From contig OZ076409.1 of NCBI GenBank assembly GCA_964187785.1, positions 12,588,001-12,652,000 of the forward strand: a DNA stretch of 64,000 nt. Direction: 5' to 3'. The DNA comes from Amphiscolops sp. MND2022 (lineage: Eukaryota). A program made the translations under genes and the position numbers. This document shows positions 2,741-63,700 of the stretch, piece by piece. The notes below the pieces were generated by a model. That model was not told the DNA's origin, searched no databases, and saw nothing but the letters and a program-made list of their open reading frames with translations. Numbering within the stretch: the stretch's first letter is position 1; each line of letters starts with the position of its first letter.

Positions 2741-4204
2741 TTTCTATCTCGGAAAGAACAGCTTCCGCTTTACAAGGCTGGTTTCTATTACTGTGTTTAC
2801 ATTGTTCAAAATGTTTTCTAGACCCGTAAATGGTCCTTTGTGGCCACCTCGCACTTTAATTCTTTTGTTTGAGGTCTAATTTTTAATTTTTATTTGATTT
2901 GAAATCAACAAGGATCTTCTGTCAATCGCTCAACGACAAATTCCGAAGGTCCACTGTTAGTTTTCCTAATACGAAGACCACCTTCGGTCAAATTGGTTGT
3001 TGTGTTTGCTCTTACTATGTTATAGGCAGTAAAAAAATTAATTTTAGGAAAAATGGCCAATTGTACAAAATCTGTACCTTCATTGAAGTTCATTGAAGCA
3101 TTTGAAGCCTGCTTCATTGAAGCCTGCTTTGTCTTGTGAAATTTTTCTTCTTTTCCGAATACCACAGTGAATAAACTGCATGTTTTTAAACGTGTTTAAA
3201 ACGAAAATTTTTAAATTTTTTAAAAATTTTTTGAAAGCGATAGTTTAAATTCAGCAACGTTTGTTTTTTTCCATTCTTTCAGCTGGGCGTGAAAACTTTT
3301 TTCGTTTAATGTAAACTGAATTTGTTTAAATTGAACGACATTCTAACTCAGAACATGATCGATGGTTCGAATCGATGGTTAAAAACACGGCGTTTGTTCA
3401 GATTGAAAATCACAATTGTTTAATAGGAGAAAAAAACGTATAGTTCTTCCACTGATATTTTTTTGCATTTTTATACTGCATTTTTTTGTATCCCGATTTG
3501 CCGTCTGCCCAATCCTTTCACCGTTTTGTTTTCCGTTTGTTTTGCCCGAAAGAATTGAACTGTATTTCGTTGCGGCAAGTAGTGGTCAGTAGAATCGAAT
3601 TAGGTTTTTAATTCCAAGTTTATCCAGTTGTTTCGTATTCTGCTCTTGTTTTCCGGTATAGTTTTTCTAGTCGATGCCCCCCCCCCCCCCCACATGAAGT
3701 CTTCTTGTTGCTTTTGTCCTTTTGCGGACCACCGGTTCCTGGTTTCCCGGTCATATCTCCTCTTTTCAGGGTCTGACTTTGTCATGTTGTATTTTAAGGT
3801 TAAGAAAACAAGTTTTCTAAAATACCTCTTTCCTCATGACAACCGTTTTCTATACTGAAATCTTGGCACAAATGCAAAACAATGCATTGACAATTTGCGA
3901 TAACGTCTGTCAACAGTTTCGTAGTACTGTCTATTATTTCGGAGTCGTAACTCGGTAGAATTCATTTCGGATCAACTGTATATAACGTTTTCGATTTTAT
4001 AATGCTGATAGTGATCCGAACGGCAAACAGATTGGCGGATCGCAAAGATGAAACATCGAACTTGAAATGCAAGATTTTTTGAAGAAGATCTTAGCACGCT
4101 GGAGAACAAGGAACAAGCTTAATAAACGCATTAAAAGGCCAAGTTTTGATTTGGTCAATAAACCTGCCTAGAGCTACTCTAGGAAATAGTTCGCTATTAC
4201 AATG

Positions 4205-5124
4205 TGTAACGGCTGCTTGCCTTTATCCTGCGCTGAGGCTTGACAAGCTTTACGCCGCCCTGATCCGTTGCTTAGTGCTGTGGACCGTCACTAAACAATT
4301 CCTGGTTTCTTATTTTAAAGGACTGTATCTTTTGACTGGTGGGTCCGATGTGACCCGTGGAATCTCCTGCGATTCCTCTGTTCACTGAATTGGATCCGAT
4401 GTGATCCTGCACACACTTCCCTCACTGTATCTTCACGCGCTCCGGCTCTCCAACTATGAGAGTAGCTACTTAGTCGCTCTAACTCTAGCGAAAAGTTGTG
4501 AAGATTGAGAAGTTGATTATTAAGTCTTGCGGTCCTGAGACCCAACTTGACTATAGCTATTCAGTGGAGAAAATCTCTCTCTAATAATAGTATACATATC
4601 GTTTACAATTCTACAGTAAATATAAGCAAATATCAGTTAAAATATGTTGTATAAATAAATGACATTTAAGTGAATTATTAAAGTTATTGGCTATGTAAAC
4701 AAAGCACATGGTGGTTTTGGCATGTTGGTTAGGTGGGTTAGAAAGTATGTTTACACTATGTAAACATTATCAATTCAACAGAGTTACATTCTAATGTGGT
4801 CATATAGGTAAATAACAAAGTTTACATTTTTGGTTCAATGACCTTGAATACTACACATGTGAGGGGTAAAGGGGGTTATAATGGGGGAATGAACTTGAAA
4901 CTTAGCCGGTGTGTTCGTGTTAGGTATCTGCGTATGTGTGCCAAGTTTCAAGTCTCTACGGTTATTAGTTGCAGAGAAAACCCTGACTGGGGGGGGTTTT
5001 TCGATTTTATGACGATTGACTTTTCTTCAAATTTTCATCTAAGTTTTTAGGAGTTTAAGTTCTCGTATCTCAACCAACATGTTCTGAATCGAGTTTCTCT
5101 GCCTTCTGATGACTGGCGCCAACA
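4205..5124 (-). repeat. 3' LTR (920 bp)
   Basis: Direct repeat of 9296-10216 at offset 5091. Confidence 0.95.
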
Positions 5125-5600
5125 TTGCCGGCCCTGTTTTTCTCCTGAAAAACACTTTCGTAGAACATGGGTGCCAGTTTCACTACTGGTCTTTTGAGTT
5201 TGTCATCGATTGTCGTTGTCGTTTTGAGATCTCCAGGTTCATTGTCATGTTTGACGGTTAATTGCCCTGTTCTTTCTCTGCTGCAACAAAATCCCAAACC
5301 ATATTCCTGTTCGCTGACCATAAGGTAGTTTTCGGCAAGTTCACATAACACATCCAAATATTTCCAAAAACAGTTTTGCTCATTTGAAGTCGTGGTTTTC
5401 CCAATTATTACAAACTTCATCGTCAACGTCTGACATTCTTCGTGTTCAATCAATTGCTTTCTTTTAGAACCTTTAAAAGGTATGATACAACCATGCTTCA
5501 TTTCATTTGACTTAGCTCCCATCGACATCCAAAGAATATGTTCCCAGAATAAGTCGAGAACATCTCCAGCCAGTTTCCCAATATCTGCTTTGCTTCGCAA
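5070..5600 (-). pseudogene. Remnant of BEL integrase C-terminus, reading into the LTR
   Basis: KLKRPVVKLAP matches the conserved terminal motif of BEL/Pao pol; the rest is scrambled. Confidence 0.65.
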
Positions 5601-5723
5601 TTCATCATCAAAATTGACTGACCGCGGGGAGATATGTCAAACTGCTTTCATTCTCTAGTATTTCCATAATCTTGATCTGGATCTGCAGTTCTTGAAATGT
5701 ACTTGAATCAACAATTATCTTAA

Positions 5724-8441
5724 TCAGTAGATAAAGAGAATTCCAACATTACGACAGTTGAAGTTCTCCCGTTTGTTTTCGGTGTTCTTTGTGCATCTAA
5801 AGAAAAATTTGCGTTCGGAACTCAGTTGCTGCGCTTCATTTTGCTTCTTCCCTTCTGACACGTCGTATTCCGTGTCTACATCCATGTTTTCTTCCAATAA
5901 CTGCAATGCTTTGGAGTTTCGCTTTCGCTTGTGTTTGTAGAACGTCACCCAGCTTCTCTCACCACAAAACTCCAACTTCTTAGCGTCTGGGTTTCTACGA
6001 GGCTCCACTAGATCATAGGAAACTTCCAATTTTCCAAAAGTCCCATTCTGAGTCCACATTGTCTTGAATGGTGCAGCCGGCCCTTTGCAAGACCCACCGC
6101 TCCAACTTTCTGTTGTTGGTACTTCCAATGAACACATTTGCGTTCTTGTCACTGATGATTTGTCTATCAGATCAAACCAAACTGTGTCCTTTTGTATTCC
6201 ATTCTCGTTCAACTGAGTTCCTTCCGTCATTCCATGAATCAGGTTTGAGAGGGGTTCAATTTTCCAAGCTCTTTTCTTCGGTCGCTTGCGGTGACCTTTG
6301 CTCAATTGAGTTTCAACAATCCCGTTAGCCTGTGCCACCGCATCCATCCCAGAGTTCCCATTTCCAATCCAAAGGTTCCAAGCATTATTCTTACTCGGGA
6401 TAGTATCTTCAACAAAGCTTACTTTGAAGTCAAAATGAAATTTCTTTCCAAACGATGTATTCATGGCTTGTGTTTCACCTTCATTGCCTTTCACGGGTTT
6501 GTCATGTTTCACTGCAACGTGGCATAGCTGTTGACACATGACTTCTTCATTCAAACTTTTTTGCAGTGCAAATTGCTGCTCATTCACAAATCCATAACTT
6601 TTGACAAAATCAAAGCATTTTTTGTTTCCTTCTTCAAGAAGTAGGGTACTGTCATGAAACATCGTCACTTCGAATAATTTCCCTTGTTGTACGTCATGTT
6701 GTACAGTGATAACTTCTGCACTCTCTAGCAGCAGTTCCAATTGCACACTCAATTCTTTTGAAGATTGTTTGCCTAATGAGAATGTTAAGCTTCTATGCTC
6801 TTTCCTTGTTTCCGTCATTGTGTACTTCAAGTTCTGCTCCCTTAGCACTATGGAATGATCACTAATGACCAAGTGAATCTCTTCTTCCACAACGTGTTTG
6901 GTATCCACGAGGAGAGTTTCTGAACGGAAGTCTTGCCGACCATTGTCTACAATGATTGTTTCTGACCAGTTTTGTATGCTTTCCGCTTTGGGGAGCTTCG
7001 AGATTCCTTTGTTTCCAACGTTCACTTCTGGTTGTGATGTTGCTCCTTTCACGAATGCTCCTTTATCAGCTTTTGTTCTATTTCCCCGATCAACTCGCTC
7101 ATCGGCTTTTGTGAGAGATTTTGAGTCCCTCATAGGTGCGGACAACTTTCCTTCGTGAGCTAATTTCACTGCATTCTCTAATTTCGAGTGTGCTGATAGT
7201 GCAATATTGGACTTAGCGCCGTCTTCGACTGTTTCTGTCTCAGCCATGCATCTTGAGTCTTCCGTGAAACTGTCGACTGATGAGACACTTGGGAAGCTAG
7301 TCCCCTGACTGCTCGACACTCCCGCTATTTCTCTTTCTTTTTCAGCTATTCTCGCTTTGCGGGCAAGCTGTTCATGCAAGTCAGCTATTTCCATTTCTAT
7401 TGCTTCACGCTTCAGTTTCTCGAGTCGGGTTTGCAGTTCTTCTTGCTCTTTCTGAGCTTTTACTTTCAAATCGAGAACTCGTCTTGCACGTGATGTTTTT
7501 GAAATCACAGACGTTTTGTTGCTTTTGGTTTCAACCAGTTTTGGATGTTTGCCCAGTTCCTCTATTTCCAATTGTCCAGTCTCACTTCTTTGGCCTTGGA
7601 CTTCATCCGATTTCTGATCTTCCGTTTTCTCTAATGCTAGAGGAAACAGTCGATCTCCATTAGACCACTTCGTGCTAACTGTTGGCCTGTTGTCCATCAG
7701 GATTGTTACGTCAGACACCTTACTGTTTTCTTCGAGTAGTGATGTCACATCGTTGATTGAGTTTTCCACTTCAGATATGCTGTCTCTCATACCACAGCAA
7801 CTTTCTTGTTCCTTGGTCTTTCTTGACCGTGTCAGTGATTCCTTTTCACTAGCTGTTTCTTTTACACAATTAGGTTTTGCCTGATGGACACGTCTTTGCC
7901 TCAACTTTCTTGTGCGAGGGCATCTCATAGCTGCGTCTGCAGATGTTCCATTTGTCATCTGACTCAGTTTCATTTCTTTTATCCCATCAATTGGACACTT
8001 CAACATTTGCTGCACATCGGGGAACCAATATCCCCAACTCGATTCCAGTTTCGCAAAGAATTCGTCCCATTCAGTCACACTTCGACTGAGCTGTCTTTGC
8101 GTTTCTTCATTTGTAAGACTCAACATAAAGTCTACACAGAACAGCAACGCCTGTCTTCTCTCGCGGTATTCAATTACCCGATCAATTAATTTGCTTTTGG
8201 ATACAACAGCTCCTTCCTCATCGAGCTTGTCATCCAAGTCTTTTACCAATGTATGGAGCTTTTTCACATGTAGGGGTACAATATCCCAATAGAGGCACCA
8301 CGCGTACCAATCTGACGCATTTTCCAAATCTTTCGGTCTGAGCTCCATCAGTTGTTGGCTCTGCTTTGTGTTTCTTTCCTCAAACACAATTGCCATTCGA
8401 GGGTGCTGCGTCAGTTGCTTTTCTTTCTTTTTGGCTTTCAT
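5724..8441 (-). CDS. Long ORF (~905 aa from first ATG) of the non-autonomous element; gag-like coiled coil plus pol-derived remnants
   Basis: Frame open for 939 codons; predicted coiled coil KAQKEQEELQTRLEKLKREAIEME; BEL-like remnants KALQLLEE and QLSSERKF; homologue at 61468-63447. Confidence 0.7.
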   Translation of the reverse strand: MKAKKKEKQLTQHPRMAIVFEERNTKQSQQLMELRPKDLENASDWYAWCLYWDIVPLHVKKLHTLVKDLDDKLDEEGAVVSKSKLIDRVIEYRERRQALLFCVDFMLSLTNEETQRQLSRSVTEWDEFFAKLESSWGYWFPDVQQMLKCPIDGIKEMKLSQMTNGTSADAAMRCPRTRKLRQRRVHQAKPNCVKETASEKESLTRSRKTKEQESCCGMRDSISEVENSINDVTSLLEENSKVSDVTILMDNRPTVSTKWSNGDRLFPLALEKTEDQKSDEVQGQRSETGQLEIEELGKHPKLVETKSNKTSVISKTSRARRVLDLKVKAQKEQEELQTRLEKLKREAIEMEIADLHEQLARKARIAEKEREIAGVSSSQGTSFPSVSSVDSFTEDSRCMAETETVEDGAKSNIALSAHSKLENAVKLAHEGKLSAPMRDSKSLTKADERVDRGNRTKADKGAFVKGATSQPEVNVGNKGISKLPKAESIQNWSETIIVDNGRQDFRSETLLVDTKHVVEEEIHLVISDHSIVLREQNLKYTMTETRKEHRSLTFSLGKQSSKELSVQLELLLESAEVITVQHDVQQGKLFEVTMFHDSTLLLEEGNKKCFDFVKSYGFVNEQQFALQKSLNEEVMCQQLCHVAVKHDKPVKGNEGETQAMNTSFGKKFHFDFKVSFVEDTIPSKNNAWNLWIGNGNSGMDAVAQANGIVETQLSKGHRKRPKKRAWKIEPLSNLIHGMTEGTQLNENGIQKDTVWFDLIDKSSVTRTQMCSLEVPTTESWSGGSCKGPAAPFKTMWTQNGTFGKLEVSYDLVEPRRNPDAKKLEFCGERSWVTFYKHKRKRNSKALQLLEENMDVDTEYDVSEGKKQNEAQQLSSERKFFFRCTKNTENKRENFNCRNVGILFIY

Positions 8442-8809
8442 TTGTTCATATGACTCTTTTGTTTCACTGAGGGCTTTCGAACTTCGCAATTGTTTCTTGT
8501 AGGCTTTGTCACTTATCCCAACTTTGCAATTTCTCAGATACAAAGTGTCAACTGCTCAATCCGGTAATCAATCGCCAATTCTTGAAGAATCAACCCAATA
8601 CTGTCGATTATACTTGCCTTCTTTGACGAACTTGATTGTTTCGGTGGATCTTGTCTCTCTGACTTGATCCCTTGGCTTTACTTGGTGGATTTACTTGCAA
8701 TGACGTCTTAGACCAGATCTTTGCTTCAATCAGGAATACGTTCCCAAAGAAAACAATTCGTCTCAAAACTAGAGTTGATGCACAAATATCTCCAGAGTGC
8801 CGCTAAAGC

Positions 8810-9120
8810 CCAACTCCCAGAGTACACAGTAGTCCCAACTCCAGAGTCACTATAGTCCAAACACCCAGAGTTACAATAGCCCAAGCTCACAGAGTCACAG
8901 TAGCCCAATCTCCCACAGAGACACAGTAACCCAATCTCCCAGAGACACAGTAGCCCAATCTCTCAGAGACACAGTAGCCCAATCTCCCAGAGACACAAAA
9001 GCTCAATCTCCCAGAGACACAGTAGCCCAATCTCCAAGAGACACAGTAGCCCAATCTTCCAGAGACTTAGAAGGCTAATCTCCCAGAGACACAGTAGCCC
9101 AAAATCCCAGAGACACAAAC
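8810..9120. repeat. 24-bp minisatellite (GTAGCCCAATCTCCCAGAGACACA-like) in the element leader
   Basis: About 12 degenerate tandem units; a shorter array sits in the second copy at ~60915-61100. Confidence 0.9.
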
Positions 9121-9162
9121 TTAGAGACTCCAAGATCCAGTTCTTGGGCGATCTTCTCAGTT

Positions 9163-9293
9163 GTCCACCAACGAGTCGTCTTCGTCCTCGTCTTCTTCTT
9201 CTAGTCCGGGTCGTCCACCAACGAGGTGTCCGGGTCGTCCACCAACGAGTTGTCCGGGTCGTCCACCAACGAGTTGTCCGGGTCGGCGGACCA
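9163..9293 (-). promoter_or_regulatory. Primer-binding site followed by tandem PBS-like repeats
   Basis: TGGTCCGCCGACCCGGAC, then three TGGTGGACGACCCGGAC units separated by A(A/C)CTCGT, then a partial unit. The first unit resembles the tRNA-Tyr complement TGGTCCTTCGAGCCGGA. Confidence 0.75.
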
Positions 9294-9295
9294 AA

Positions 9296-10216
9296 TGTAA
9301 CGGCTGCTTGCCTTTATCCTGCGCTGAGGCTTGACAAGCTTTACGCCGCCCTGATCCGTTGCTTAGTGCTGTGGACCGTCACTAAACAATTCCTGGTTTC
9401 TTATTTTAAAGGACTGTATCTTTTGACTGGTGGGTCCGATGTGACCCGTGGAATCTCCTGCGATTCCTCTGTTCACTGAATTGGATCCGATGTGATCCTG
9501 CACACACTTCCCTCACTGTATCTTCACGCGCTCCGGCTCTCCAACTATGAGAGTAGCTACTTAGTCGCTCTAACTCTAGCGAAAAGTTGTGAAGATTGAG
9601 AAGTTGATTATTAAGTCTTGCGGTCCTGAGACCCAACTTGACTATAGCTATTCAGTGGAGAAAATCTCTCTCTAATAATAGTATACATATCGTTTACAAT
9701 TCTACAGTAAATATAAGCAAATATCAGTTAAAATATGTTGTATAAATAAATGACATTTAAGTGAATTATTAAAGTTATTGGCTATGTAAACAAAGCACAT
9801 GGTGGTTTTGGCATGTTGGTTAGGTGGGTTAGAAAGTATGTTTACACTATGTAAACATTATCAATTCAACAGAGTTACATTCTAATGTGGTCATATAGGT
9901 AAATAACAAAGTTTACATTTTTGGTTCAATGACCTTGAATACTACACATGTGAGGGGTTAAGGGGGTTATAATGGGGGAATGAACTTGAAACTTAGCCGG
10001 TGTGTTCGTGTTAGGTATCTGCGTATGTGTGCCAAGTTTCAAGTCTCTACGGTTATTAGTTGCAGAGAAAACCCTGACTGGGGGGGGGTTTTTCGATTTT
10101 ATGACGATTGACTTTTCTTCAAATTTTCATCTAAGTTTTTAGGAGTTTAAGTTCTCGTATCTCAACCAACATGTTCTGAATCGAGTTTCTCTGCCTTCTG
10201 ATGACTGGCGCCAACA
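9296..10216 (-). repeat. 5' LTR (921 bp)
   Basis: Direct repeat of 4205-5124; followed on the minus strand by TT-TGGTCC. Confidence 0.95.
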
Positions 10217-11043
10217 CAATGTTTTGATTACTGAGTCATTTACCTGATTGATTCAGCCACTCGACGAAACTTGAAATGGAAGGGTGAATTATTTTATTTT
10301 GCCTTTTTTAGTGTTCCATTTTTAGGGTGCCCTTTTTGGTTTTTAACATTGTAATTTTTTAAAATACTTTTCTTCAACAAAACTGAAGGCTTTCAAAAAT
10401 CACTAGTGTATTTAAAATCTGCAATTCGTATAAAAATTTTTTTACTATTCCGATTTAAACCGAACTATGATTGAATCTCTTTGCCGTTTTTGCAAAACAA
10501 TATCTTGACTTATTCAGTCTGAAAATCTGGCAATTGCAAATGTCCATTTGTTAGTCGGTGCTTTCGTAAAAAGAGACGACTATAGTAGTGGTTTTTTCAA
10601 CACCAACGAAGTGACAGATTTTGTAAGCTTTATCGGCGGTAACGTATACCTGATATAACGTTTCCTGGATAATTTTTCAAAGCTGTAAACTGTGCCAAGG
10701 AGTCCCCTTCGACAATAACACAACCCATACCAGATTTAACACAAACTGGATATAACGAATTCTGGATACAACCAATACCGGATAGAACGTTTCTTGAAGA
10801 ATTTTCAATGTTACAAAAGGGTCCCTCCTTTGGATTTTTATGGCGCAAACCCGATCTAACGCTAACCGGAATAACGAATTCAAGATGTAACGTATACCGT
10901 ACTTAAACTCGCATAACATTTTCATAGTTCGGATAAAACGTTTCTTTTCTTGCATAGCGTTATTTTTTCCCCAAATTTTCACGCCTAATTTACGTCCAAA
11001 AAAACTTTTGGCTCAGGTTTTCAGTACTATAAAATTTTGTTGG

Positions 11044-13697: not shown

Positions 13698-14143
13698 GTT
13701 GAATTTTCGAAAGAAAACTTTATGTAACAAGTGATACCAAGTCCCTGGTTACACTTTTGTGCGTTGAGCGATGCGGCGACTTCGGCCCTTGCCGGCTTGT
13801 TTGAATCTGTCTTCATGTATTTCCATAGCTTTTCGAAGAACCTTATTAGAATCAAGATTGTACACGTGAAGAGGCTCTATAGAGCATCTTTGTTTTTCAA
13901 CCCAAAGCAAAACATTTCGACCTGTCGAACACGTTCCCGTGTTAAATAAAATATTATAAAATATCTCCGTCGCTAGGGTAGCTAGAAAACTAATTATGTA
14001 TAAATTGCAAAACACTTCGACAAGCTTTCGCACAAAAGTTGTTTTCCACTTTTTTCTTATGATTAAAATTACCTCAAATGAGAAAGTATTATGACATTAC
14101 ATTGCCGAAAAATCAGCTGATCTCAATTTTTCTACAGACTGAG

Positions 14144-17100
14144 TGTGTCATTCAAGAAACGCATGAATGACTTCTCAATGAAACAATCGATGTTTTGATG
14201 ATTAACAATTAACGTAGGTTATGTAATTTCACTTTTGAGTCAACGATATGCGAGAAAGTCATCATGGTTAGTGAAACCTTTTACTTAAGTTTGTGGGAAA
14301 TTGAATACTTAGCTAAATTTGCTGGTATTGTAGATTTGAATCAATTCAACTGAAGATTTTACAAACACTGATTTTTTTCTGCGAAAACTACCCCACGAAG
14401 TGTAGTCGCCCCTAACGGCAAATTCAAATCATGACAACTCCTTCTCAAGTCCAAGTGGAACAGAGGGCTAGAAGTTTGTCTTTAAGAAACTTTACCAAAG
14501 CATGTAACAGGTATGAGACTTTTCTATCCGAAGTTGAAAAATCTGCCGAAGAAATCCAGTTGTGTTTTGAAGACATTGTGAATACATGGTGTCTTCTTCA
14601 AGAAAAGCAAAATGAGTATTTGTTTAAATTAGACCAAGAAATGTACGATAATGAAATTTCTTGGATTGACGAGCCTGAAAATCGATTTCATGCACTAAGA
14701 TCAAAAAAGTGCCAACTCGAAATCTTACTGAAAGAAGAGAAAATGAAAAGGGAAAAAGAGGAACTATATCAGAAAACTATAGAGTTCGCGGAATCAGATG
14801 AATTGAAACGTCAAGATGAAATAAAAGAGACAGTTGGAAAAATGAAAGAAAAGTACAAGGTTGAAGTCAATCGTTTACACAACATTTGTCAATCATTTGA
14901 AAACCTTCCAAAAGTTACAGAACGAGTTTTGAAAAACGTCAAATACGACTTCGATAACCAATACAAAGAAGTGAAGATGGTCATTGATTCTCTTTCTGAA
15001 TTAGTAAACCAGGAGACAACTTTCGAAAAAGAAATCAAAGAACTCACAAATATTTCAACGAAGTTTTTTGATATGATGTATGCCGCCTCCAGTTCAGAAC
15101 CTTTTCAGTCAGAAAAAGGCGGCAGTGATGTTTTGCAAGACAGAAAATCGTTTACACACATGGAAAAGCTCAAGTTTCCGAACTTCAGCGGAAATTGCCG
15201 AGACTGGCCTCAATTCAGGAAGGATTTTAAAAAACAAGTTGAAAATGTGATAAAGGATGAAGCTACTGTGTCATACGCTCTGAGAAATGCTTTACCAGAT
15301 AACATAAAAAGTTCAGTGAGGAATATGAGTGATGATTTAAAAGAAATGTGGCGATGTTTAGAAGAACGGTATGGTGATGAAGGTAAAATTGTCGAAATTG
15401 TGTTGAACGACATAAAACACTACAAGCCTGTGCGAGAAAATGAAGAGCGTCGTCTGTTGAATTTTATTGATATTATTGAAAAAGCTGATCTAGAACTGAA
15501 GTATTTGGGACGTGAATCAGAAATTAAAAACAGTACAATCATTTCAATCATTGAAGAAAAGCTACCAGACGAATTGAGAAGAAAATGGTTCGAACGAATT
15601 TATGACAAAGAGAGTACGATTGATAAAAAGGATAAGTTTCCAGGATTCTTGAAGTTTTTACTCGAAAGAAAAATGGTGATTGAATATGAGATCAATTTGA
15701 CGAAACGTAACAGAGATGATTACAAAGGAAATGTGAAAATGACCATTTCTAAAGGTGAAGAGGCTGATTTCCCGAAAGGCAAGTGTCTCCTTCATCCGAG
15801 TGGAACTCATAAAACAGAAGACTGTCGATTGTTTCGGGACAAAAATGCGAAGGAAAGAGCTGATAATGTTAAAGATAAACGTGCTTGTTTCAATTGTCTC
15901 GTCGCTGGGCACACATCCAGAACTTGTCGCACCAGAAAAATTTGCAGCAAAGCTGAATGCGGTAAAATCATCATCTTCTTTTACACGATGATAATTTTAC
16001 GAACAACAGAAATGAAACAAACAGTTTTTCTGCAAAATGTGATGTTTCAAACAACCCAGAAAAAAGTTTATTGCAGATTATGCCTATTGAAGTCAGCTCT
16101 GGGTTGAACAAACAAGAAGTATTAGCCCTATGGGATTCTGGGTCTACAGTTTCTTTAATTCTCAACAATGTAGCCAATAACTTGAAGCTGAAAGGAAAAC
16201 CTGTGTCCATTACCATGGAAACATTGGGCAGAGTTGTCAAAAAACAAACGAATCTCTTTGTTTTGCAAATCAAGGACCGAAAAGCAATCTAGTGCAAATT
16301 GAAGCTTACGGCGTTGACGAAATTTCTAGAGATATGTACAATACAGAATTGCAAAAAAATCTGTTTCCGGAAGATTTTGCTTGCCAAGATAGTCAGAAAG
16401 CTCATATTGGTTTACTCTTAGGTTTGAACGTGGTTCAGTATCATCCTGTACCTGTGAAAAGAAAGAACAACTTTGTCTTGTTTGAGAATGCTTTTGGTAA
16501 ATGTGTTAGTGGTAGTACCTGCCACTCGTCTGAATATACTTTCACCAAGGTTAACTTCGTGCAGACAGCTATCACTATGGAAGATTTTTACAATGTTGAA
16601 AACTTAGGAATTGCTTGTAACCCCAAATGTGGCAACTGCCAATGTGGTAGTTGTCCTCTTGGTTCCTCTGAGTTTTCAATCAAGGAACAAAAAGAGTTAG
16701 AAATTATTGAAAAGGGTTTGACTCTTTCTGATACAGTTTGGACTGCAAAGTACCCTCGAATAAAAAGTTCGAAGCAATTGCCGAATAACTTTCACGTTGC
16801 AAAGAAAATGTTATTTACTACTGAAAGGAGGCTGATGAAGGATCCTATTCATGCGAAAACGTACCAAAGTCAAATTGATGACATGATAGAGCGAGGAGTC
16901 GCGAAGAAGATGTCAAAAGAAGATTTAGATTACGACGGTCCAGTGCATTACATAAGCCATCATGAAGTACTAAAGCACGATTCAGCTTCTACTCCTTGCC
17001 GAATAGTTTTCAACGCTTCTGCAAATTACAAAAATAACGTTTTAAATGAGTATTGGGCTAAAGGACCCGATCTACTGGGCAATCTTTCGGGTATTCTAGT

Positions 17101-20100
17101 CAAATTTAGAGAAAATTTTGTGGGATACATCGGTGATGTGGAAAAATGTATCATACAGTGCGACTAGATTCTAAAGATCAGCAGACACATCGTTTTTTGT
17201 GGAGAGATTTCCGACAAGATGATAAACCAGACCATTATATGATGCAAGTGGTTTCTTTCGGTGACAGACCCGCAGCAACAATTGCACAGCTCGCCTTAAG
17301 GAAAACAGCGGAAATGGCAAATGACGAGTACTCGGGAGAAAAAAGGTTGTTCTAAGTTCAACTTATTTGGATGACATTGTCGACAGCGTCCATGATCATG
17401 ACTTAGCCAAAACACGAACTAAAAGAATTGATGAAATGTTAGCTGAAGGATCTTTTAAAACCAAAAATTGGATCTATTTAGGTCATAAGGAGCCGTCATC
17501 TGACATAGTATGTCTCGCAGCTCATGCAAAAGTTTTGGGATTTTACTGGAGTTTGCAGAAAGATGTTTTTGTTTTCAAGTCGAAAATTGTGATCAAAGCA
17601 AAATCGGGAAAAGAACCCATCAAATCGTACCATGCAGCAGAAGATCTCAAAAAAGATGCTATTGACAATTTAACAAGACGGCAAGCTTTGAGTCAAGTCA
17701 ATTCCATTTACGACCCCTTAGGATTAGCAACACCATTCATTGTGAAAGCTAAAGAACTGATGCGAAAAACATGGAATTCAGAAGAAGCTTCTGATTGGGA
17801 TGATGCCTTATCGAATTAACTTACTACTGAATGGACTTTGTTGTTTCAAGAACTTTTTGAAATGGTCGAAATTGAGTTTGTGCGCTGCATTAGACCGTAT
17901 CACAGTCTTGGTGATCCAATACTTGTAATATTCAGTGATGCCTCCAAAGATGCATATGGGGCAGTTGCCTACGCTGTATGGACTCTCTCAAACGGGACTA
18001 ATGAAGCTAGGTTAATTGTTGCTAAAAGCAGACTAGCCCCGAAGAAGCAATTATCTATTGTACGACTGGAATTGTGTGGTGTTCTAGTTGCTGTCAGAAT
18101 AAAAAAGTTCCTTTTCAAACATTCCAGACTCAATTTTACAGACGTGAAGTTCGTTTGTGATCCTGAAGTTGTTGGGGCAATGATACAAAAGGACTCCTAT
18201 GGTTTCAACACTTTCACTGGAGCGAGACTGGGAGAAATTCAGGAAACTGAAAATCGGAACACTGTCTGTTGGGTCTCAGGTGAAGTCAATGTGGCTGATT
18301 TAATTTCCAGAGGGTTTTCTCCGAAAGAACTCAGATTCGATAGCCACTGGCAAACAGGACCTTCATTTCTCAGAAATCCTGTGTTTGAATGGCCCCTTGA
18401 ACAAAAAATGTATGCGATAGAGCTATTGCCAGAAATTATTCCCTGCAAAAGTTTTTTAGTTAATCAAAAAAATTCAACTCCTTTTGTGGAGTTTGATACG
18501 ACTAGATTTTCCAATGTTAACTCACTTGTTCGAACTGTTGCCCGAGTGTTGTCAGTTTGTTCTTCAAGATCGTTCAGGAAAGTGAAAGATATGCCAAATG
18601 CCGAAAATGTGAAAGAAGCCTGGGAATTTATAGTGAGGTCTGAACAAAACAAGATTATGACAGATTTTGAAGCTGGGAAATTTGATCCATTGGGTGCTTT
18701 TTTGGACCTGTATGGAATTATTCATGTGGGGCGGAGGATTCAACAGACAGTGCCTTTAATTCCAAAGTTGCAATTAGTTGAACTCTTGATCAAAGATGCT
18801 CACGAAATGGGACATGGTGGAGTTTTACACACAGCCAGCAAAGTCAGAACAAAAGTTTGGGTTTTTCATTTGTTGAAACTAGTAAAATATATCCTGAAGA
18901 AATGCACCGGTTGCAAAATTTTCACCAAAACCAGAGCTGTTCAGTTAATGGGAGCACATACTGATGAAAGAATTGAACTTTCATATCCTTTCTCAAGCAT
19001 CTGCGTTGATCTTTTTGAAGTTAAGGATGAAGTTAAGGATTGCTTCAGAAAAACAACTGTATGGAAAGTGTATGCGGCTATTTTTACATGTTTGTTTTCC
19101 AGAGCAGTTTACTTGGACATCGTTTTGAGCTATTCAACAGACGAATTTTTGCAAACATTCCGAAGATTTGTTACTATAAGAGGTTACCCTGAGGTGATTC
19201 ATTCAGATTCTGGCACACAATTGGTTGGTGCAAACAGGCAACTCCAAAGTGTTTATCGAGTTCTCGATCCTGATGTTTTGTCAAAAGAACTGCTTTTCAA
19301 AGGAGTTAGATGGGAGTTTGCTCCAGGCTGTGCACCTTGGCGTCAAGCATGTGCAGAGTCATTAATCGCTTCTGTGAAAAAATGTTTGTTCTTCGCAATT
19401 GGTAGTCAAGTTTTATCCCTCATCGAATTCCAGACAGTGCTGTTTGAGACAGCTAATTTGCTCAATGACCGTCCTATTGGCAGACACCCTACTCAACCCG
19501 AAGATGGTTTTTATTTGTCTCCCAATAGTCTTTTACTTGGTCGAACAATGAATCAATCGGTGCCGTTTATCCATGTCAAAACCGAAAAGATGGCTCGACA
19601 TAAGCTAGTTGAAACTATTATGAATTCGTTCTGGAAGAAATGGCAGCAGTCTTTTTGCCTCAAATGGCCCACTACAAAACCTGGAAAAGAGAACGGAAGA
19701 ACGTTCAAGCCGGTGATGTAGTATTGTTAGAGGACCAAAATGCAATTCGAGGTATTTGGAAGCTTGGCATTGTCAAAAACGTCTTCCCTGGACGTGATAG
19801 TCTTGTGAGAGATGTGGAAGTTGAAGTTGTGAGTAAAGACGGATCCAAGACACTTTTTTCTCAGCCAATACAAAAATTAGTCATTATTGTGCCCAAGGAT
19901 GAACAGTAAGGATGTAACTTTGTTAACCCCGCCCGGAGTGTGTCATTCAAGAACCTCATGAATGACTTTTCAATGAAACAATCGATGTTGTGATGATTAA
20001 CAATTAACGTAGATTATGTAATTTCACTTTTGAGTCAACGAATTGCGAGAAAGTCAGCATGGTTAGTGAAACCTTTTACTTAATTTTGTGGGAAATTGAA

Positions 20101-20217
20101 TACTTTGCTGAATTTGCTGGTATTGTAGATTTGAATCAATTCAGCTGAAGATTTTACAAACACTGATTTTCTTCTACGAAAACTACCCCACGAAGTGTAG
20201 TCGCCCCTAACGGCAAA
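14144..20217 (+). mobile_element. Full-length but decayed BEL/Pao retrotransposon
   Basis: 279-bp LTRs 14144-14422 and 19939-20217 (about 14 mismatches by eye); TSD CTGAG at 14139-14143 and 20218-20222; gag-PR-RT-RH-IN order. Confidence 0.95.
14431..19909 (+). pseudogene. BEL/Pao gag-pol broken by several frameshifts and stops
   Basis: Gag KLKFPNFSG and CFNCLVAGHTSRTC; protease ALWDSGS; CNPKCGNCQCGSC; RT YLDD at ~17364; RNase H FSDAS; integrase HxxGH...CxxC and HSDSGTQ; C-terminal WKLGIV...PIQKLV. Split over seven ORFs. Confidence 0.92.
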
Positions 20218-21942: not shown

Positions 21943-22437
21943 GGTATGCGGAAAACTCGTCGAAAACAACTCGCCGAATGCAACTCGTCGAAAACAACTT
22001 GTCAAAAATAAAGGGCGGAAAACTGGTCGAAAATTAACTTGTCGACTAATAATTGAGTGCAAACTCGTCGAATAATTACAGATTACAAACAAGGATTATT
22101 CAGTGCTAATTATGGATTAATTTTCTTTAATTGATTTTCAGTTTCGCGCATAATATAGTTTTCTAGTTATAAAATTGCTTGAAATATTTCACGTTTATTA
22201 GTTAACAGTGTAATACTTCATAATAAGTTGGAATTTAATAACACAGTATGATCACGAAGTTAGCGCTATATTTGTCTGAGACTATTTCTATTCTTGCGAC
22301 GAGTTTTCCGCCGGAGAATTTTCGGCGAGTTGCTTTTCGACGAGTTTTCCGCCTAGTATTTGCGACCAGTTGTTTTCGGCGAGTTGTTTTCGACGAGTTG
22401 TTTTCGACGAGTTGTTTTCGACGAGTTTTCCTAGATT
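21943..22437. mobile_element. Mutator-like foldback MITE with 15-bp subterminal tandem repeats
   Basis: AACTCGTCGAAAACA-type repeats inverted at the two ends; flanking direct repeat TCAGAAAATT at 21933-21942 and 22438-22447 (9-10 bp TSD). Confidence 0.8.
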
Positions 22438-27135: not shown

Positions 27136-27982
27136 GGGAGGCGGAAATTTTGTCGCCAGAAATTTCGTCGTCAGAAATTTCGTCGTATTGATTAGTATTA
27201 ACAGCGTAACGAAAAGACATCATTTGAATTATTCAATTATTCAAATATTAAAATGAGATGTTAAGAATAAGAACCAAAATTGAGTCAAAAAGTTAATTGC
27301 ATTCAATCAACTCATCAAGACGCTTATTGAGCAATGGTATATTTTCAGTTCTACCGGTGGAACAAGTTGCCTCTCCAGAGTCGAATTATTTAGAATCGAA
27401 AATTGCAAGTGAAATTCGCAGGGTCGAATTATTTAGGATCGAATTTTATAGGGCACTATAGCAATTGTTTAATATGAATGAAAATTTCACTTCTTTCGAT
27501 CCTAGCTAAAATCAAGTCAAAATTCGATCCTATAAATTTTTGCACTTTTTTCGATCCTGCATAATTCGACTCTGTGCAGCAATCCCGGTGGAACTACTTA
27601 CCGGAGCTTTACAATACAAATTAGGCTTTTTTCAGGGGTGTATTTTTGCTTTTTTATCAGAAAATTGTTTCAAAGTCTTGGTAATTTTTGCTTTAAGTGT
27701 CGAAACAACTTCGTGTTGGGGAGATAAGAAACAAGATGTATCTGGGGGGACCCGAAACTATTTTTTCAAAACCATAACTAAAAGTAGTCAATGATAGCAA
27801 TAATTGCACAATTATCGATAATTTCTGACGACGAAATTTCTGACGACGAAATTTCTGACGACGAAATTTCTGACGACGAAATTTCTGACGACGAAATTTC
27901 TGACGACGAAATTTCCGAGGACGAATTTTCTTGCGATGAAATTTCTGACGACGAAATTTCCGACGACGAAATTTCTGGTAAT
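27136..27982. mobile_element. Mutator-like foldback MITE with 15-bp tandem repeats and a nested MITE
   Basis: Perfect 9-bp TSD CGATAGGTC at 27127-27135 and 27983-27991; GAAATTTCTGACGAC repeated about 10 times on the right and about 3 times inverted on the left; nested CAGAGTCGAATTAT...ATAATTCGACTCTG at 27376-27574. Confidence 0.88.
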
Positions 27983-32667: not shown

Positions 32668-35600
32668 TAAAGTAAGTCAGGAAAAGTTCAAAGAATGTAT
32701 TAAAACTGGAATGGTTCAAAGTAACAAAGCTGTATCAAACGACTGTACTTCATCTTCAACTTGTATCTATGTGTAACTACATGACTTCAGAACATAAGAT
32801 CATTGGCAGGTAGTTTTGTGTCATGTTATTCGCCAAGGTTTATCATTGACACTTGTTGGATTGACACATTTTTGATGCTTGTGTCACATTCCCTCCTCCA
32901 TGACGTTCAGGGAAACCAGTCGTGCTGAGGGGGGTTGTTCTTGATTCGTGGAAACGGAGTAATTGGATATCTCCTTGGAATGGTGAATGTATACTCAGTT
33001 CCTAAATGGATCACTGTTAAAAATACTCAACACCACCTAGTTTGACTGTTCTTTTTGCATTTTTTATTCTTTCAGATCTACGTGGCTCTATGGTTAGATC
33101 TAGTGGGTTATTTTCCCCGTTATCATTTTGTTTTAGCCGTACTTTACCTGTGGCGTTCTGATGTACTGTTTCTATGCCGGAAGTGCCTTGATTCCGGATT
33201 GGTGTTCCGGATGTGTCCGGTTGTGCTGTGTCTTCGGGCGGGACCAGTTCCGTGCTACATCCGATTGGGGAGGACGGCATCGGTGTCTCCGACCGTAGGC
33301 GTTCGACTTCCCGGCCGATCATGTCCCTGAGTGTGATGTCTTCGGTGGCTTCTCCTTCTGAGGTGGTCATATCGGCTTGATCGTTTGTCGGTTCCGAGTC
33401 GTTGCTAGAGGAGTCGTGCAGTATCACGCGGCTGTATGTTCGTTTCTTTGACGGCATGGTCGGAATTGCGGTGTAACTGGTACCGGGTTCGTTGTTGTTA
33501 TTGTCTTGTCTGGCCACCTCAAGGCGTAGATGCGTTTCACACAGATCGCCACTGCTGAATTTCCCGCATCTGCGGCATCTGTTGGTTGGCCGTCTTTGTT
33601 CTTCGGGTTTTCTTGGTGTCTGAAATTTTAGGGGTTTTGACGCCAGTTTTTTGTGTATTATCTTCCCTTCAGAGGTAGTTACCGTGTGTTTTGTTTCTGC
33701 TACTTCTGTTGAAATCTTATTTGTTTTAAAACCACATTTCATGGAATTCGGTTTGTTTTCTTTCTCATCAAATTGGTAGTTTTTAAAATCCCGGCTTACC
33801 GAGCGTCCTTTCTTCTTTGGTTCGTTTAACACCAAGTAGTCGGCTAGTTCTCCTCCTGCATCATTGATAGTGACGACCTGTAGTTCTGTTGGTTGGGCTA
33901 AAACGTAATTGGTTAGCGTTTTCTTCCAATTAGCAAGTAGACATTCCGGCTTGTCTATTAAATTAATCAGAGCGGTGCGCGGTTTTCTACCTAGATGCAT
34001 TTGAAAGGGTGTCATTTTTAGTTTGCTGTGCGGCGTTTGTCTGATTGTTCTTATTGCTAGTTGGACACTGTCTTCGAAAGTTAGGCCGTCTGCCATGTTT
34101 GCTCGAGTGAGCGATTTAATTGACCGGATAGCTCGTTCAACCAGACCGGTGCCGGTGTGTAAATTTGGAGTGCACCGTATACGTTTAATATTTTGGTCTT
34201 TACAGAACTGTTTGAATTCGATGCTTTTAAAGCAGCTTCCGTTGTCGGTTCGAATAACCCTTGGTATCCCGTTGTCCGTAAAATATTTAGATAAAAATTT
34301 CTTGACGGTCCGTGTATCCGCGCTTTTGCAAATATGTGCGGTCGGCCATTTGCTAAAACGGTCAATTGCTACTAAAATATATACATCGCCGCGTGTTTTT
34401 GATTTGATTGGACCGGCGAAATCCAATTGGATTTCTTGATTTGGTTCCGTTAAAATGTCTAAATTATTTTTTTCCGTGGACGGAATTTGAGTAGTAAGAT
34501 TCTTACCTGCGGCTCTACAGCTTGGGCATGATTCGGCTTTTTCGTGGATTTCGCGGTTCATTCCCGGCCACCAGAAGGCCTCGGCTAGCTTTTCCATTTT
34601 TCCAGCCGATGTATGTCCGTGGTGTAACATGGCTATCACCGTTGTCCGCATGTTTTCCGGAATCACTATCCTGTCGTTGTAGAACAGTAGGCCAAATCTC
34701 GTGGATAGATGTGACCGGTGTGGACGATAGGGATAAAAAATGCTATCCGGTTGTTGGTTTTCGATGGCCGCGATTGCATTGAGTATCTTTATGTCTCGTG
34801 CTGTTTCGTCAACCAGCAGTGGGATGTCCAGTGCGAAATCTTTTTCTACTCTTTTGATGGTTTCTTCTGTGCCTTGATTTTGGTCGTTGCTGAGTGTATT
34901 CTTTATTGCTGTCTGTTTGAGTCGGATTAAGTTTACGGTTTCGTGCTTCTTAAATTTCTTTAGAGCACTTGTGGGGCACTTGTCCCGTTTGATGTGACTA
35001 GTCTCGCTTTCTCCGTCCGATTGGTTGTTGTGCAGCCAAGATTCGTTGTTGTTTTGTTGATATTCTAGCAGGGGTGTCGTCTCGAGCGTTTCGCAGTATC
35101 TGAAGAAGCGGTTATAAATTTTGATGTTGATTTCTGCGATTCTTTTTCTGCTTGCCTGATTTGGTCGATACTCCTGTATCCGTTCACTTTCTTTGCCTTT
35201 CCCGACAATTCGTGTCCGATCCGGCTTCAGAAAGTGATTTCTCTCGATCCACAGGCGTTTGGTTTCTGGGGAATGGCCCCTTTTCTTGAAGATGAAATTC
35301 ATATCTATGCCATTGACTTTGTCCATTTTTGAATTTGATGATTCGCGATCGATAATGTTAATTGGCAGCGGTGAGGTTTTAAACAAATGAGTGTTTGAAT
35401 TCTGTTCGCATGAAATTTTGTCGTGCTGTGATTGGTCGGAATTTTCTCTCGCGTTCAGTTGTTCGGTGAATCGCTTTATGCTTCCTCGCTCTCGATTGAA
35501 TTCAAATAGGCCGTATATTTGGTTAATGACGAACTCTTCGTCGGCTTCCGCTTCGTTTTGTCCGTCCGCTTTGTTTTCTAATTCGGCAATTTCGGTCGGT

Positions 35601-44632: not shown

Positions 44633-44684
44633 CTGAAAACAAAATCCACTCCAAATTTCATTTTTCGAATGCCATGTAACCTAC

Positions 44685-60774: not shown

Positions 60775-63700
60775 TTTGGTCAGCCGACCCGGACAACTCG
60801 TTGGTCCGCCGACCCGGACAACTCGTTGGTGGACGACCCGGACTAGAAGAAGACGACTCGTTGGTAGACAACAGAAGATTGCCCAAAAACTGGATCTTGG
60901 AGTCTCTGATTTCGTGTCTCTGGGAGATTGGGCTATTGTGACTCTGGGAGATTGGGCTATTGTGACTCTGGGAGATTGTGCTACTGTGACTCTGGGAGAT
61001 TGGGCTACTGTGTGTCTGGGAGATTGGGTTACTGTGTCTCTGGGAGATTGGGCTACTGTGACTCTGGGAGTTGGGACTATTGTGTACTCTGGGAGTTGGG
61101 CTTTAGCGGCACTCTGGAGGTATTTGTGCATCAACTCTAGTTTTGAGACGAATTGTATTCTTTGGGAACGTATTCCTGATTGAAGCAAAGATCTGGTCTA
61201 AGACGTCAGTGCAAGTAAATCCACCAAGTAAAGCCAAGGGATCAAGTCAGAGAGACAAGATCCACCGAAACAATCAAGTTCGTCAAAGAAGGCAAATATA
61301 ATCGACAGTATTGGGTTGATTCTTCAAGAATTGGCGATTGATTACCGGATTGAGCAGTTGACACTTTGTATCTGAGAAATTGCAGAGTTGGGAAAAGTGA
61401 CAAAGCCTACAAGAAACAGTTGTGAAGTTCGAAAGCCCTCAGTGGAACAAAAGAGTCATATGAACAAATGAAAGCCAAAAAGAAAGAAAAGCATCTGATG
61501 CAGCACCCTCGAATGGCAATTGTGTTTGAGGAAAGAAACACAAAGCAGAGCCAACAACTGATGGAGCTCAGACCGAAAGATTTGGAAAATGCGTCAGATT
61601 GGTACGCGTGGTGCCTCTATTGGGATATTGTACCCCTACATGTGAAAAAGCTCCATACATTGGTAAAAGACTTGGATGACAAGCTCGATGAGGAAGGAGC
61701 TGTTGTATCCAAAAGAAACTTGATTGATTGGGTAATTGAATACCGCGAGAGAAGACAGGCATTGCTGTTCTGTGTAGACTTTATGTTGAGTCTTACGAAT
61801 GAAGAAACGCAAAGACAGCTCAGTCGAAGTGTGACTGAATGGGACGAATGCTTTGCGAAACTGGAATCGAGTTGGGGATATTGGTTCCCCGATGTGCAGC
61901 AAATGTTGAAGTGTCCAATTGATGGGACAAAAGAGTTGAAACTGAGTCAGATGACAAATGGAACATCTGCAGACGCAGCTATGAGATGCCCTCGCACAAG
62001 AAAGTTGAGGCAAAGACGTGTCCATCAGGCAAAACCTAATTGTGTAAAAGAAACAGCTAGTGAAAAGGAATCACTGACACGGTTAAGAAAGACCAAGGAC
62101 AAAGAAAGTTGCTGTGGTATGAGAGACAGCATATCAGAATTGGAAAACTCTATCAACGATGTGACATCACTACTCGAAGAAAACAGTAAGGTGTCGGACG
62201 TAACAATCCAGATGGACAACAGACCAAGAGTTAGCACGAAGTGGTCTAATGGAGATCGACTGTTTCCTCTAGCATTAGAGAAAGCGGAAGATCAGAAATC
62301 GGATGAAGTCCAAGGCCAAAAAAGCGAGACTGGACAATTGGAAATAGAGGAACTAGGCAAACATCCAAAACTGGTTGTAACCAGAAGCAACAGAAGCTCA
62401 GTGATTTCGAAAAGTTCAATTGATAGACGAGTTCTTTATTTGAAAGTAAAAGCTCAGAAAGAGCAAGAAGAACTGCAAACCCGACTCGAGAAACTGAAGC
62501 GTGAAGCAATACAAATGGAAATAGCTGACTTGCATGAACAGCTTGCCCGCAAAGCCAGAATAGCTGAAAAGGAAAGAGAAATAGCGGAAGTTTCGAGCAG
62601 TCAGGGGACTAGCTTCCCAAGTGTCTCATCAGTCGACAGTTTCACGGAAGACTCAAGATGCATGGCTGAGACAGAAACAGTCGAAGACGGAGCTAAGTCC
62701 AATATTGCACTACCAGTTCATTTGAAATCAGAGAATGCAGTGAGATTAGTTCACGAAGGAAAATTCTCCGCGATTAGGAGAGACTCAAATCCTCCCACAG
62801 AAGTTGATCAGCAAGCTGATCGGAAAGACAGAACCGATGTTGATAACGGAACATGCAGACAAGGAGCAACATCACAACCAGACGTGAAAGTTGCAAACAA
62901 AGGAACCTCGAAGTTCCTCACAGCGGAATGCATACAGAACTGGTCAGAAACATTCATTGAAGACAACGGTCGGCAAGACGTCCGTTCAGAAACCCTCCTC
63001 GTGGATACCAAACAGGTTTTGGAAGAAAATATTCACTTGGGCATGAGTGAGCATTCGATAAGTCAAACAAAGGAGAACTTGAATCACACAATGGCAGAAA
63101 CAAGGAAGGAGCATAGATTCTTATCATTCGCATCAAGCAAACAATCTTCGGAAGAATTGAATGTGAAATTGGAGCTGCTGCAAGAGAGTGCAGAAAATAC
63201 CGCCGTACAACAGGACATACAACAAGGGAAAATATTCGAAGTGACGATGTTTCATGACAGTACTCTACTTCTTGAAGAAGGAAACAAATGTTTTGAATTC
63301 GACAAAAGTTATGGATTTGTGCATGAGCAACAATTTGCTCTGCTTGATGATTGTAGGAAGAAGCAATGTATCGAAAGCTATGCCATGTGGCAGCGAAACA
63401 TGACAAACCCGTTGAATGCATTGCCAAAGGTGAAACACGTACCATGATTGCAACCTTTGGAAAGAAATTTGATTTTGACTTCAAAGTAAGCCTTGTAGAA
63501 GAAACTATCCCGAGTAATAACGATGTGTGGAACCCTCGGCTTGGGAATGGAAACTCTGGGATGGACGCGGTGGCACAGGCTAACGGCATGGATAAAACTC
63601 AATTGAGCAAGTGCCACCGCAAGCGACCGAAGAAACGAGCTTGGAAGTTTGAACATACCTCAATCCTATTACATGGAATGGTCGAATGTGTTCAATTGAC

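What the first reader, a model, noticed from the sequence alone, without database searches (positions are those of the whole stretch)
9163..9295. Tandem array of primer-binding-site-like units that differs between copies at the LTR-proximal end
Seen: after the 5' LTR the element reads TT-TGGTCCGCCGACCCGGAC, then three TGGTGGACGACCCGGAC units with 7-nt linkers. The second copy (60775-60868) reads TGGTCAGCCGACCCGGAC, TGGTCCGCCGACCCGGAC, TGGTGGACGACCCGGAC. Each unit is PBS-sized (17-18 nt) and starts with TGG, the complement of tRNA CCA. Known: LTR elements normally have one PBS, re-copied from the primer each cycle. Inference: new variants seem to be added next to the LTR, so the array could record successive primers or strand-transfer slippage, allow priming by several tRNAs, or act as a decoy for 3' tRNA fragments.
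Basis: partly seen in the sequence, partly recalled or inferred. Interest (0 to 1): 0.7.

Follow-up and report, generated by a model that had tools for sequence, protein, structure and literature searches.

The report
Slipping primer-site array with masking hairpin
A young jumping gene carries what is likely one working tRNA primer site, followed by a short repeat that varies from copy to copy, likely arose by copying slips rather than by recording different primers, and is predicted to fold back and cover the primer site.

Summary
The array is real and lies in a young non-autonomous BEL/Pao element (4205-10216, minus strand; LTRs 99.8% identical). Unit A, next to the LTR, is complementary to a natural tRNA-Tyr 3' end at 14 of 15 non-CCA bases. 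Unit B is one base short of tRNA geometry and is a splice of an older downstream motif (C) and the 3' half of A.

I read unit order from antisense peptides of 56 relatives (one rebinned by hand): 13 single A, 22 A-B, 20 longer, 1 B only. A is first in 55 of 55. Five arrays place A beyond B, so order is not a polar record. None of 56 right-hand LTR ends carries a full unit, which argues against productive priming inside the array.

The 5' arm of B and C is complementary to PBS bases 3-12 and is predicted to mask them (93-95%); covariation is inconclusive. The closest known case is the partial PBS duplication of HIV-1 MAL. This scan has noted PBS arrays in other genomes. Host tRNAs, genome and reads were unavailable.

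The parts
9296..10216 (-). 5' LTR, 921 bp, TG...CA
   Evidence: 99.8% identical to 4205-5124 (one substitution, one 1-base indel)
4205..5124 (-). 3' LTR, 920 bp; no PBS-like unit outside it
4200..4204 (.). 5-bp target-site duplication CAATG (partner at 10217-10221)
9276..9293 (-). Unit A: 18-nt primer binding site of tRNA-Tyr type, 2 nt after the LTR
9204..9275 (-). Three 24-nt repeats of linker plus unit B (B = first 8 nt of motif C + last 9 nt of A)
9261..9270 (-). Anti-PBS arm GTTGGTGGAC of the first B, complementary to A bases 3-12 (10 pairs, two G.U); further copies at 9237-9246, 9213-9222, 9163-9172
   Evidence: predicted folding
9177..9203 (-). Purine-rich spacer that follows the last unit; in single-A relatives it follows A directly
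9160..9176 (-). Motif C with its ACTCGT lead-in, present in single-A relatives, likely donor of the 5' half of B
8807..9118 (-). Second, unrelated 24-nt minisatellite (about 13 copies) further down the leader
5724..8555 (-). 943-codon open frame with no Pfam match; relatives end in DUF5641 or a piece of Pao peptidase A17; no reverse transcriptase
5070..5636 (-). 188-codon frame whose end matches the C-terminus of a DUF5641-bearing relative (41 of 47 identical)
5132..5146 (-). Purine-rich tract just before the 3' LTR (PPT-like)
60777..60872 (+). Copy 2 leader: A* (one base differs from A, at position 6), A, B, spacer, C; no 5' LTR upstream
60910..63680 (+). Body of copy 2, 91% identical to copy 1 over 2777 nt; the element continues beyond the window

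Best explanation
This is the leader of a young non-autonomous BEL/Pao LTR retrotransposon in which the unit next to the LTR (A) is likely the only working primer site, for tRNA-Tyr, and the rest is an unstable repeat that likely arose by copying slips and is predicted to fold back over that site. Steps: (1) Shown: A complements a natural tRNA-Tyr 3' end. Inferred: the host's own tRNA-Tyr primes there. (2) Shown: diverged relatives have A, a purine spacer and motif C, without B. Inferred: one template switch between C and the 3' half of A put a 24-nt linker-plus-B insert directly behind the PBS, and this A-B form spread. (3) Inferred: A and B share TTGGT at the 5' side and CGACCCGGAC at the 3' side. 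Misalignment during reverse transcription or DNA replication therefore duplicates A, B or A-B blocks, or collapses the array to one A. A stays first because only a site next to the LTR gives an integrable end. (4) Predicted: in the RNA, GTTGGTGGAC of the nearest B (or of C where B is absent) pairs with PBS bases 3-12, so the primer must be annealed against a stem. The TGG that makes B look like a PBS lies inside this arm. I put steps 1-3 at about 0.75, and a selected role for the hairpin at about 0.4.
For: tRNA: 1 of 4 metagenome hits to a T-loop-plus-A pattern is a tRNA gene, and its anticodon, which was not in the pattern, is GTA (Rfam 71 bits). Duplex energy with its 3' end: A -39.7, A* -33.5, B -23.5 to -23.7, C -12.6 kcal/mol. 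A BEL/Pao element with a tRNA-Tyr PBS is described in PMC4580426 (passages). Family: 56 of 93 antisense peptides span the leader: 13 A, 22 A-B, 20 longer, 1 B only; A first in 55 of 55 (P0184 rebinned by hand). Orders include ABBBAAB (twice), ABAB and AABAAAAB. Single-A relatives differ from each other at 6.05 of 30 LTR-peptide residues against 2.07 for B-bearing ones (13 of 13 and 34 of 36 used; 0 of 5000 label shuffles), so single A looks older. Four still more distant relatives are also single A with a C-like motif. No full unit at 37 plus 19 right-hand LTR ends. Hairpin: summed pairing probability 0.93-0.95 in three contexts of 300-1000 nt and 0.95 for the second unit of copy 2. A helix of 10 or more pairs with A was reached by 1 of 2000 shuffles of the 60 nt after the last B and by 3 of 1822 other 60-nt windows.
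Against: The tRNA is from another organism; the host's tRNA set was not available. Unit order was read from translated antisense frames of cluster representatives, so silent changes, frames with stops and near-identical copies are hidden. The hairpin was found after looking. Its significance falls with window size (14 of 2000 shuffles at 100 nt, 132 of 2000 at 300 nt), 95 of 3000 random 18-mers have such a helix downstream, and overall folding energy is no better than shuffles (z between -0.97 and +0.84). Covariation read by hand from 17 single-A relatives is mixed: arm unchanged in 9, one change that keeps pairing, one relative with a compensatory pair plus a break, and 6 with a broken pair (fewest base changes assumed). 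One PBS variant recurs in 3 of 54 proximal units (peptide VLVGGP) and could be a second tRNA-Tyr gene. Real Ala and Val tRNAs can match the first 11 nt of B.
Confidence: 0.7

Rival explanations
1. Polar record: each cycle can add a fresh primer-derived unit next to the LTR and push older ones outward, for example when priming from an inner site is combined with a jump to the second genome RNA.
For: 9 of 14 multi-A arrays have all extra A units on the LTR side. Copy 2 has its variant unit first. P0126 repeats the PBS together with the LTR's last bases, which points to reverse transcriptase.
Against: Local duplication of an A-B pair gives the same AnBm order with no record. 5 of 14 multi-A arrays are not polar. 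The inner-priming route should leave units outside the 3' LTR, and 0 of 56 right ends have a full unit. Ty1 and Ty3 do not take the PBS from the primer (PMC5371799, passages).
Confidence: 0.1
2. B is a second primer site for another tRNA (Ala or Val type), so the element can be primed by two tRNAs.
For: B starts with TGG. Among 155 loci fetched with a pattern built from B, 21 tRNA genes end in the complement of B's first 11 nt (10 Ala, 8 Val, 1 each Phe, Ile, Leu).
Against: Those tRNAs are prokaryotic or viral, were selected by the pattern, and match at most 14 of 18. B is one base short in the T-arm register and breaks the conserved C61 in the CCA register (position rule recalled; see the Rfam consensus). 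Both halves of B and both its flanks occur elsewhere in the element. No right-hand end shows priming from B.
Confidence: 0.08
3. The array is a selected regulator. B units mask the PBS and also present the 3' half of the PBS, which would match the seed of an 18-nt tRNA-Tyr 3' fragment, so unit number tunes priming or soaks up such fragments.
For: 42 of 56 leaders carry A with extra units, and the B-bearing group is the less diverged one. The PBS is the hardest of 41 sampled 18-mers to open (14.4-14.6 against a median of 8.7 kcal/mol). 3' tRNA fragments repress LTR elements through the PBS (10.64898/2026.01.22.698655, abstract).
Against: Extra sites on the same RNA could as well add silencing. 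Opening the stem costs far less than the tRNA duplex gains. Founder effect explains the spread of A-B. A second, unrelated minisatellite just downstream shows that this leader is slippage-prone.
Confidence: 0.12

Closest known systems
HIV-1 MAL-type 23-nt insertion behind the PBS (PMC3185550, passages; PMC11181671, passages)
   Same: [quoted passage not shown]
   Different: Single in HIV-1 as described there; here it is repeated and mixed with full PBS copies, up to 8 units. In the passages seen it is not described as an arm pairing with the PBS.
HIV-1 mutants with multiple PBSs during primer reversion (PMC1084362, passages)
   Same: Several PBS copies arise in one leader during replication.
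   Different: Laboratory mutants with sites for different tRNAs; here a natural family with one tRNA type.
BEL/Pao elements with a tRNA-Tyr PBS, e.g. Achilles (PMC4580426, passages)
   Same: Tyr-type 18-nt PBS right behind the 5' LTR, TG...CA LTRs, Pao-type domains in relatives.
   Different: A single PBS is reported there; this family lacks reverse transcriptase and has the array.
Non-autonomous LTR elements with tandem repeats in Culex, and cqgypsy_1 with an atypical PBS region (PMC3286476, passages)
   Same: Non-autonomous elements with near-identical LTRs and minisatellites in the leader.
   Different: Those repeats are not described as PBS-derived; cqgypsy_1 holds two whole tRNA sequences.
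Drosophila gypsy with two tRNA-Lys sites (PMC1635307, abstract) and the bipartite PBS of Ty1/Ty3 (PMC5371799, passages)
   Same: More than one tRNA-matching stretch, with only the 5' site needed for cDNA synthesis in gypsy.
   Different: Fixed sites, far apart or split; not a variable tandem array.

Membership tests
LTR retrotransposon | Direct terminal repeats TG...CA with a target-site duplication | tested here: met
   920/921-bp LTRs, 99.8% identical; CAATG duplicated
LTR retrotransposon | PBS behind the 5' LTR and purine tract before the 3' LTR | tested here: met
BEL/Pao | Pao-type domains (Peptidase_A17, DUF5641; the link of DUF5641 to this group is recalled) | tested here: met
   Met in close relatives above Pfam cut-offs (P0007, P0106, P0095). 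Copy 1 itself has no Pfam hit, only the matching C-terminal piece.
BEL/Pao | Placement by reverse-transcriptase phylogeny | not tested
   Copy 1 has no reverse transcriptase; no autonomous partner was identified
Autonomous element | Encodes reverse transcriptase, RNase H and integrase core | tested here: not met
   No such domain in the two frames of the 4.2-kb interior
tRNA-Tyr primer binding site (unit A) | 18 nt complementary to a tRNA 3' end in canonical register | tested here: met
   14 of 15 non-CCA bases against the tRNA-Tyr(GTA) gene in L002
tRNA-Tyr primer binding site (unit A) | Complementary to the host's own tRNA and used for priming | not testable with these tools
   No genome, no runs listed, no tRNA in the window
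Primer binding site (unit B) | Complementary to a tRNA 3' end over about 18 nt in canonical register | tested here: not met
   17 nt; 13 pairs with an internal loop against tRNA-Tyr; at most 14 of 18 against 21 non-host tRNAs. Host tRNAs untested.
Polar acquisition array (record-like) | New units enter at one end and order is kept across copies | tested here: not met
   5 of 14 multi-A arrays have A beyond B; first unit is A in 55 of 55
Conserved RNA stem over the PBS | Predicted dominant pairing | tested here: met
   0.93-0.95
Conserved RNA stem over the PBS | Compensatory base changes across relatives | tested here: inconclusive
   Read from peptides only: 9 unchanged, 1 pair-keeping, 1 compensatory plus a break, 6 broken, of 17

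The most novel reading that the evidence does not exclude
The family has turned its primer site into a tunable switch. An element-borne mimic of the tRNA-Tyr 3' end clamps the PBS shut, and copying slips set how many full sites, clamps and fragment-seed sites each copy carries. Copies thereby differ heritably in how readily they are primed and in how exposed they are to tRNA-fragment silencing.
Probability: 0.15. Interest if true: 0.7.

Novelty: new variant of a known kind. Interest (0 to 1): 0.4.

Why it matters
Partial and multiple PBS duplications are known from HIV-1, but mostly as one fixed insert or as laboratory transients. Here a large natural family shows the whole series, from one site to eight mixed units, with the older single-site form still present. 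That gives a natural data set for how reverse transcription slips at the primer site and whether BEL/Pao elements copy the PBS from the primer. If the predicted anti-PBS stem is real, the natural variants make it directly testable whether masking the PBS trades priming against tRNA-fragment silencing. If it is not, the array is an ordinary leader minisatellite seeded by a PBS fragment. My six searches aimed at tandem, multiple, duplicated or masked PBSs in retroelements, listed no title or abstract start describing such an array; most subscription papers are not in that library.

Tried and rejected
DNA of other copies could not be had. No whole genome is held. No sequencing run was listed (no evidence either way), so no reads were laid. 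The array pattern gave 0 hits in viral contigs and metagenome contigs, and the main frame gave no viral locus. No tRNA gene lies in the window, so an element-encoded primer was not found. The A-based tRNA pattern gave 0 viral hits; 3 of its 4 metagenome hits were not tRNAs.

The host taxon was not established: the Atlas gave only weak look-alikes for a neighbouring frame and nothing for the element's frame. The main frame shows no similarity to the gag of the other BEL/Pao element in the window.

Overall folding energy does not beat shuffles, so it is not used as support. As DNA, neither strand is predicted to form the full 10-pair stem, so a strand asymmetry I had considered is not claimed. 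The first parse of unit order mis-read several peptides and was replaced. The comparison with the window's own LTR peptide is biased by its reference and was replaced.

An assembly artefact is unlikely because the array recurs in many contigs and in both copies here, but unit counts in single copies could hold sequencing errors. Coding function of the units was considered: the antisense frame over the array is open in both copies, but relatives read it in three different frames, so it is treated as a by-product. Supplements of the papers were not opened.

Full report
The element. Self-comparison of the window shows a direct repeat at 4205-5124 and 9296-10216, 99.8% identical, with one substitution and one single-base indel. 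On the minus strand it begins TG and ends CA, and CAATG is duplicated on both sides, so this is a recent insertion of 6.0 kb. The interior has frames of 943 and 188 codons with no Pfam match and no reverse transcriptase. A protein search gave 213 relatives at E 0.001 or better, of which 120 were listed; many carry PF18701. Rescanning five sequences confirmed DUF5641 in two relatives and Pao peptidase A17 in one, and the short frame ends like one of them. I file it as a non-autonomous BEL/Pao family. The host is probably an animal (range of BEL/Pao recalled) but was not identified.

The observation. Copy 2 is 91% identical in its body but has no 5' LTR; a decayed LINE-like stretch lies upstream. 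In both copies a purine-rich spacer follows the last unit, and then motif C, which has the same ACTCGT lead-in and the same first bases as B.

Which units are primer sites. A pattern of a T-loop motif plus the complement of A found 4 metagenome loci. One is a 73-nt tRNA gene with a GTA anticodon, no encoded CCA and a T run behind it. It complements A at 14 of 15 non-CCA bases; the anticodon was not part of the pattern. It comes from another organism, so it shows the type of tRNA and not the host's gene. A tRNA-Tyr PBS is reported for the BEL/Pao element Achilles (PMC4580426, passages). Against this tRNA end, A binds at -39.7, A* at -33.5, B at about -23.6 and C at -12.6 kcal/mol. B is 17 nt. 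In the T-arm register it lacks one acceptor base, and in the CCA register it breaks the conserved C61 (rule recalled). A host tRNA of this kind cannot be excluded.

The family. With no genome or reads, I used the antisense frame that runs over the array and into the LTR. Two searches returned 93 distinct peptides from unnamed contigs (read). Each unit type gives its own peptide in each frame, so order can be decoded. The script placed 55 with units and 38 without; I moved P0184 to single A by hand, giving 56 and 37. Orders: A 13, A-B 22, three or more units 20, B only 1 (P0195, which has lost A together with the LTR end and was left out of the next count). The first unit is A in 55 of 55. Of 14 arrays with more than one A, 9 have the extra A units on the LTR side and 5 do not (ABBBAAB twice, ABAB, AXBBAB, AABAAAAB). 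Local duplication of an A-B pair yields AnBm order by itself, so the 9 are no sign of a record, and the 5 need block duplication. Of 54 first units parsed by script, 42 give the unchanged peptide; the rest are single changes, one of them shared by three relatives. The A* change was absent from the 5 first units read in the one frame that shows it as a residue change, and no peptide ends at the stop it would make in another frame; in the third frame it is silent. These peptides are cluster representatives, and frames with stops are invisible, so the counts are not frequencies.

Direction of change. Single-A relatives differ among themselves at 6.05 of 30 LTR-peptide residues, B-bearing ones at 2.07 (13 of 13 and 34 of 36 used; 0 of 5000 shuffles; relatedness not corrected for). 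A more sensitive search added 24 new proteins, of which 23 were read: 4 are distant leaders, all single A with a C-like motif, and 19 are LTR ends running into other DNA. C is therefore likely older than B. B equals the lead-in and first 8 bases of C joined to the last 9 bases of A and to A's downstream flank. One single-A copy (P0189) belongs by its flanks to the B-bearing group and is likely a collapse.

Priming from inner units. Priming at B would carry A and the linker to the outside of the 3' LTR. None of 37 plus 19 LTR ends that run into other DNA shows a full unit. Three have a few matching residues (P0147, P0197, P0235) that may be chance. Such products might simply fail to integrate, so this excludes productive use only. 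A review of Ty3 states that Ty1 and Ty3 do not inherit the PBS from the primer (PMC5371799, passages), which weakens the premise of a primer record; BEL/Pao may differ.

The hairpin. GTTGGTGGAC, made of the linker end and the start of B or C, is complementary to PBS bases 3-12, with two G.U pairs. It is the complement of that part of the PBS with two C-to-T changes, that is, a near copy of the tRNA's own 3' sequence. Folding puts 0.93-0.95 probability on this pairing in three contexts, mostly with the nearest B, and 0.95 for the A unit of copy 2. The PBS is the hardest of 41 sampled stretches to open, though it is also G+C-rich. Chance: 1, 14 and 132 of 2000 shuffles for 60, 100 and 300 nt; 3 of 1822 other windows; 95 of 3000 random 18-mers. 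Total folding energy is not unusual. Covariation from peptides is mixed (9 unchanged, 1 pair-keeping, 1 compensatory plus a break, 6 broken, of 17). In retroviruses the PBS domain is structured and the nucleocapsid protein unwinds it for annealing (PMC11181671, passages). A stem here is plausible but unproven.

Comparison with what is known. The closest case is the 23-nt partial PBS duplication behind the PBS of HIV-1 MAL-type isolates (PMC3185550, PMC11181671; passages), then the multiple-PBS revertants of HIV-1 (PMC1084362, passages). Leader minisatellites in non-autonomous LTR elements are described from Culex (PMC3286476, passages). PMC10886601 was searched for passages and gave nothing on tandem PBSs. 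Earlier notes of this scan describe PBS arrays and PBS-complement repeats in other genomes; they gave me the leads to the HIV-1 papers, which I then read in passages.

Verdict. The array is real, family-wide and hypervariable, with one likely functional Tyr primer site. It was likely built by slippage from a chimeric unit, and it carries a predicted PBS-masking stem. It is not shown to be a record of primers or a multi-tRNA device. New variant of a known kind; interest 0.4.

Noticed in passing
window 14141-20217 (+): A second BEL/Pao element with LTRs 95% identical has no TGG-type primer site behind its 5' LTR; an ATG follows about 10 nt after the LTR.
   Followed up: no
window 32668-38614 (-): A young Ty3/gypsy element with identical 221-bp LTRs and one 1798-codon gag-pol frame; its LTR ends in TA rather than CA. 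Its PBS has no downstream complementary arm (longest helix 4).
   Followed up: partly
window 58259-60532 (-): Fragments resembling a decayed LINE reverse transcriptase directly upstream of copy 2, whose 5' LTR is missing up to about its last base.
   Followed up: partly
window 8807-9118 and 60914-61102: A second 24-nt minisatellite in the same leader, unrelated to the PBS, with different copy numbers (about 13 and 8) in the two copies.
   Followed up: no
window 5724-8555 (-): The family keeps a long open frame in over 200 relatives although its N-terminal part matches no Pfam family or Atlas cluster; relatives differ in their C-terminal parts.
   Followed up: partly
proteins P0126 and P0197: P0126 repeats the PBS together with the last LTR bases. 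P0197 has four PBS-like residues directly against an LTR end, perhaps by chance.
   Followed up: no
window 21954-22431, 27820-27977, 46604-46787: Other tandem or inverted repeat patches (14-, 15- and 29-nt periods).
   Followed up: no
window 42234-44657 (-): An 807-codon serine-rich open frame without Pfam match, possibly a large host exon.
   Followed up: partly
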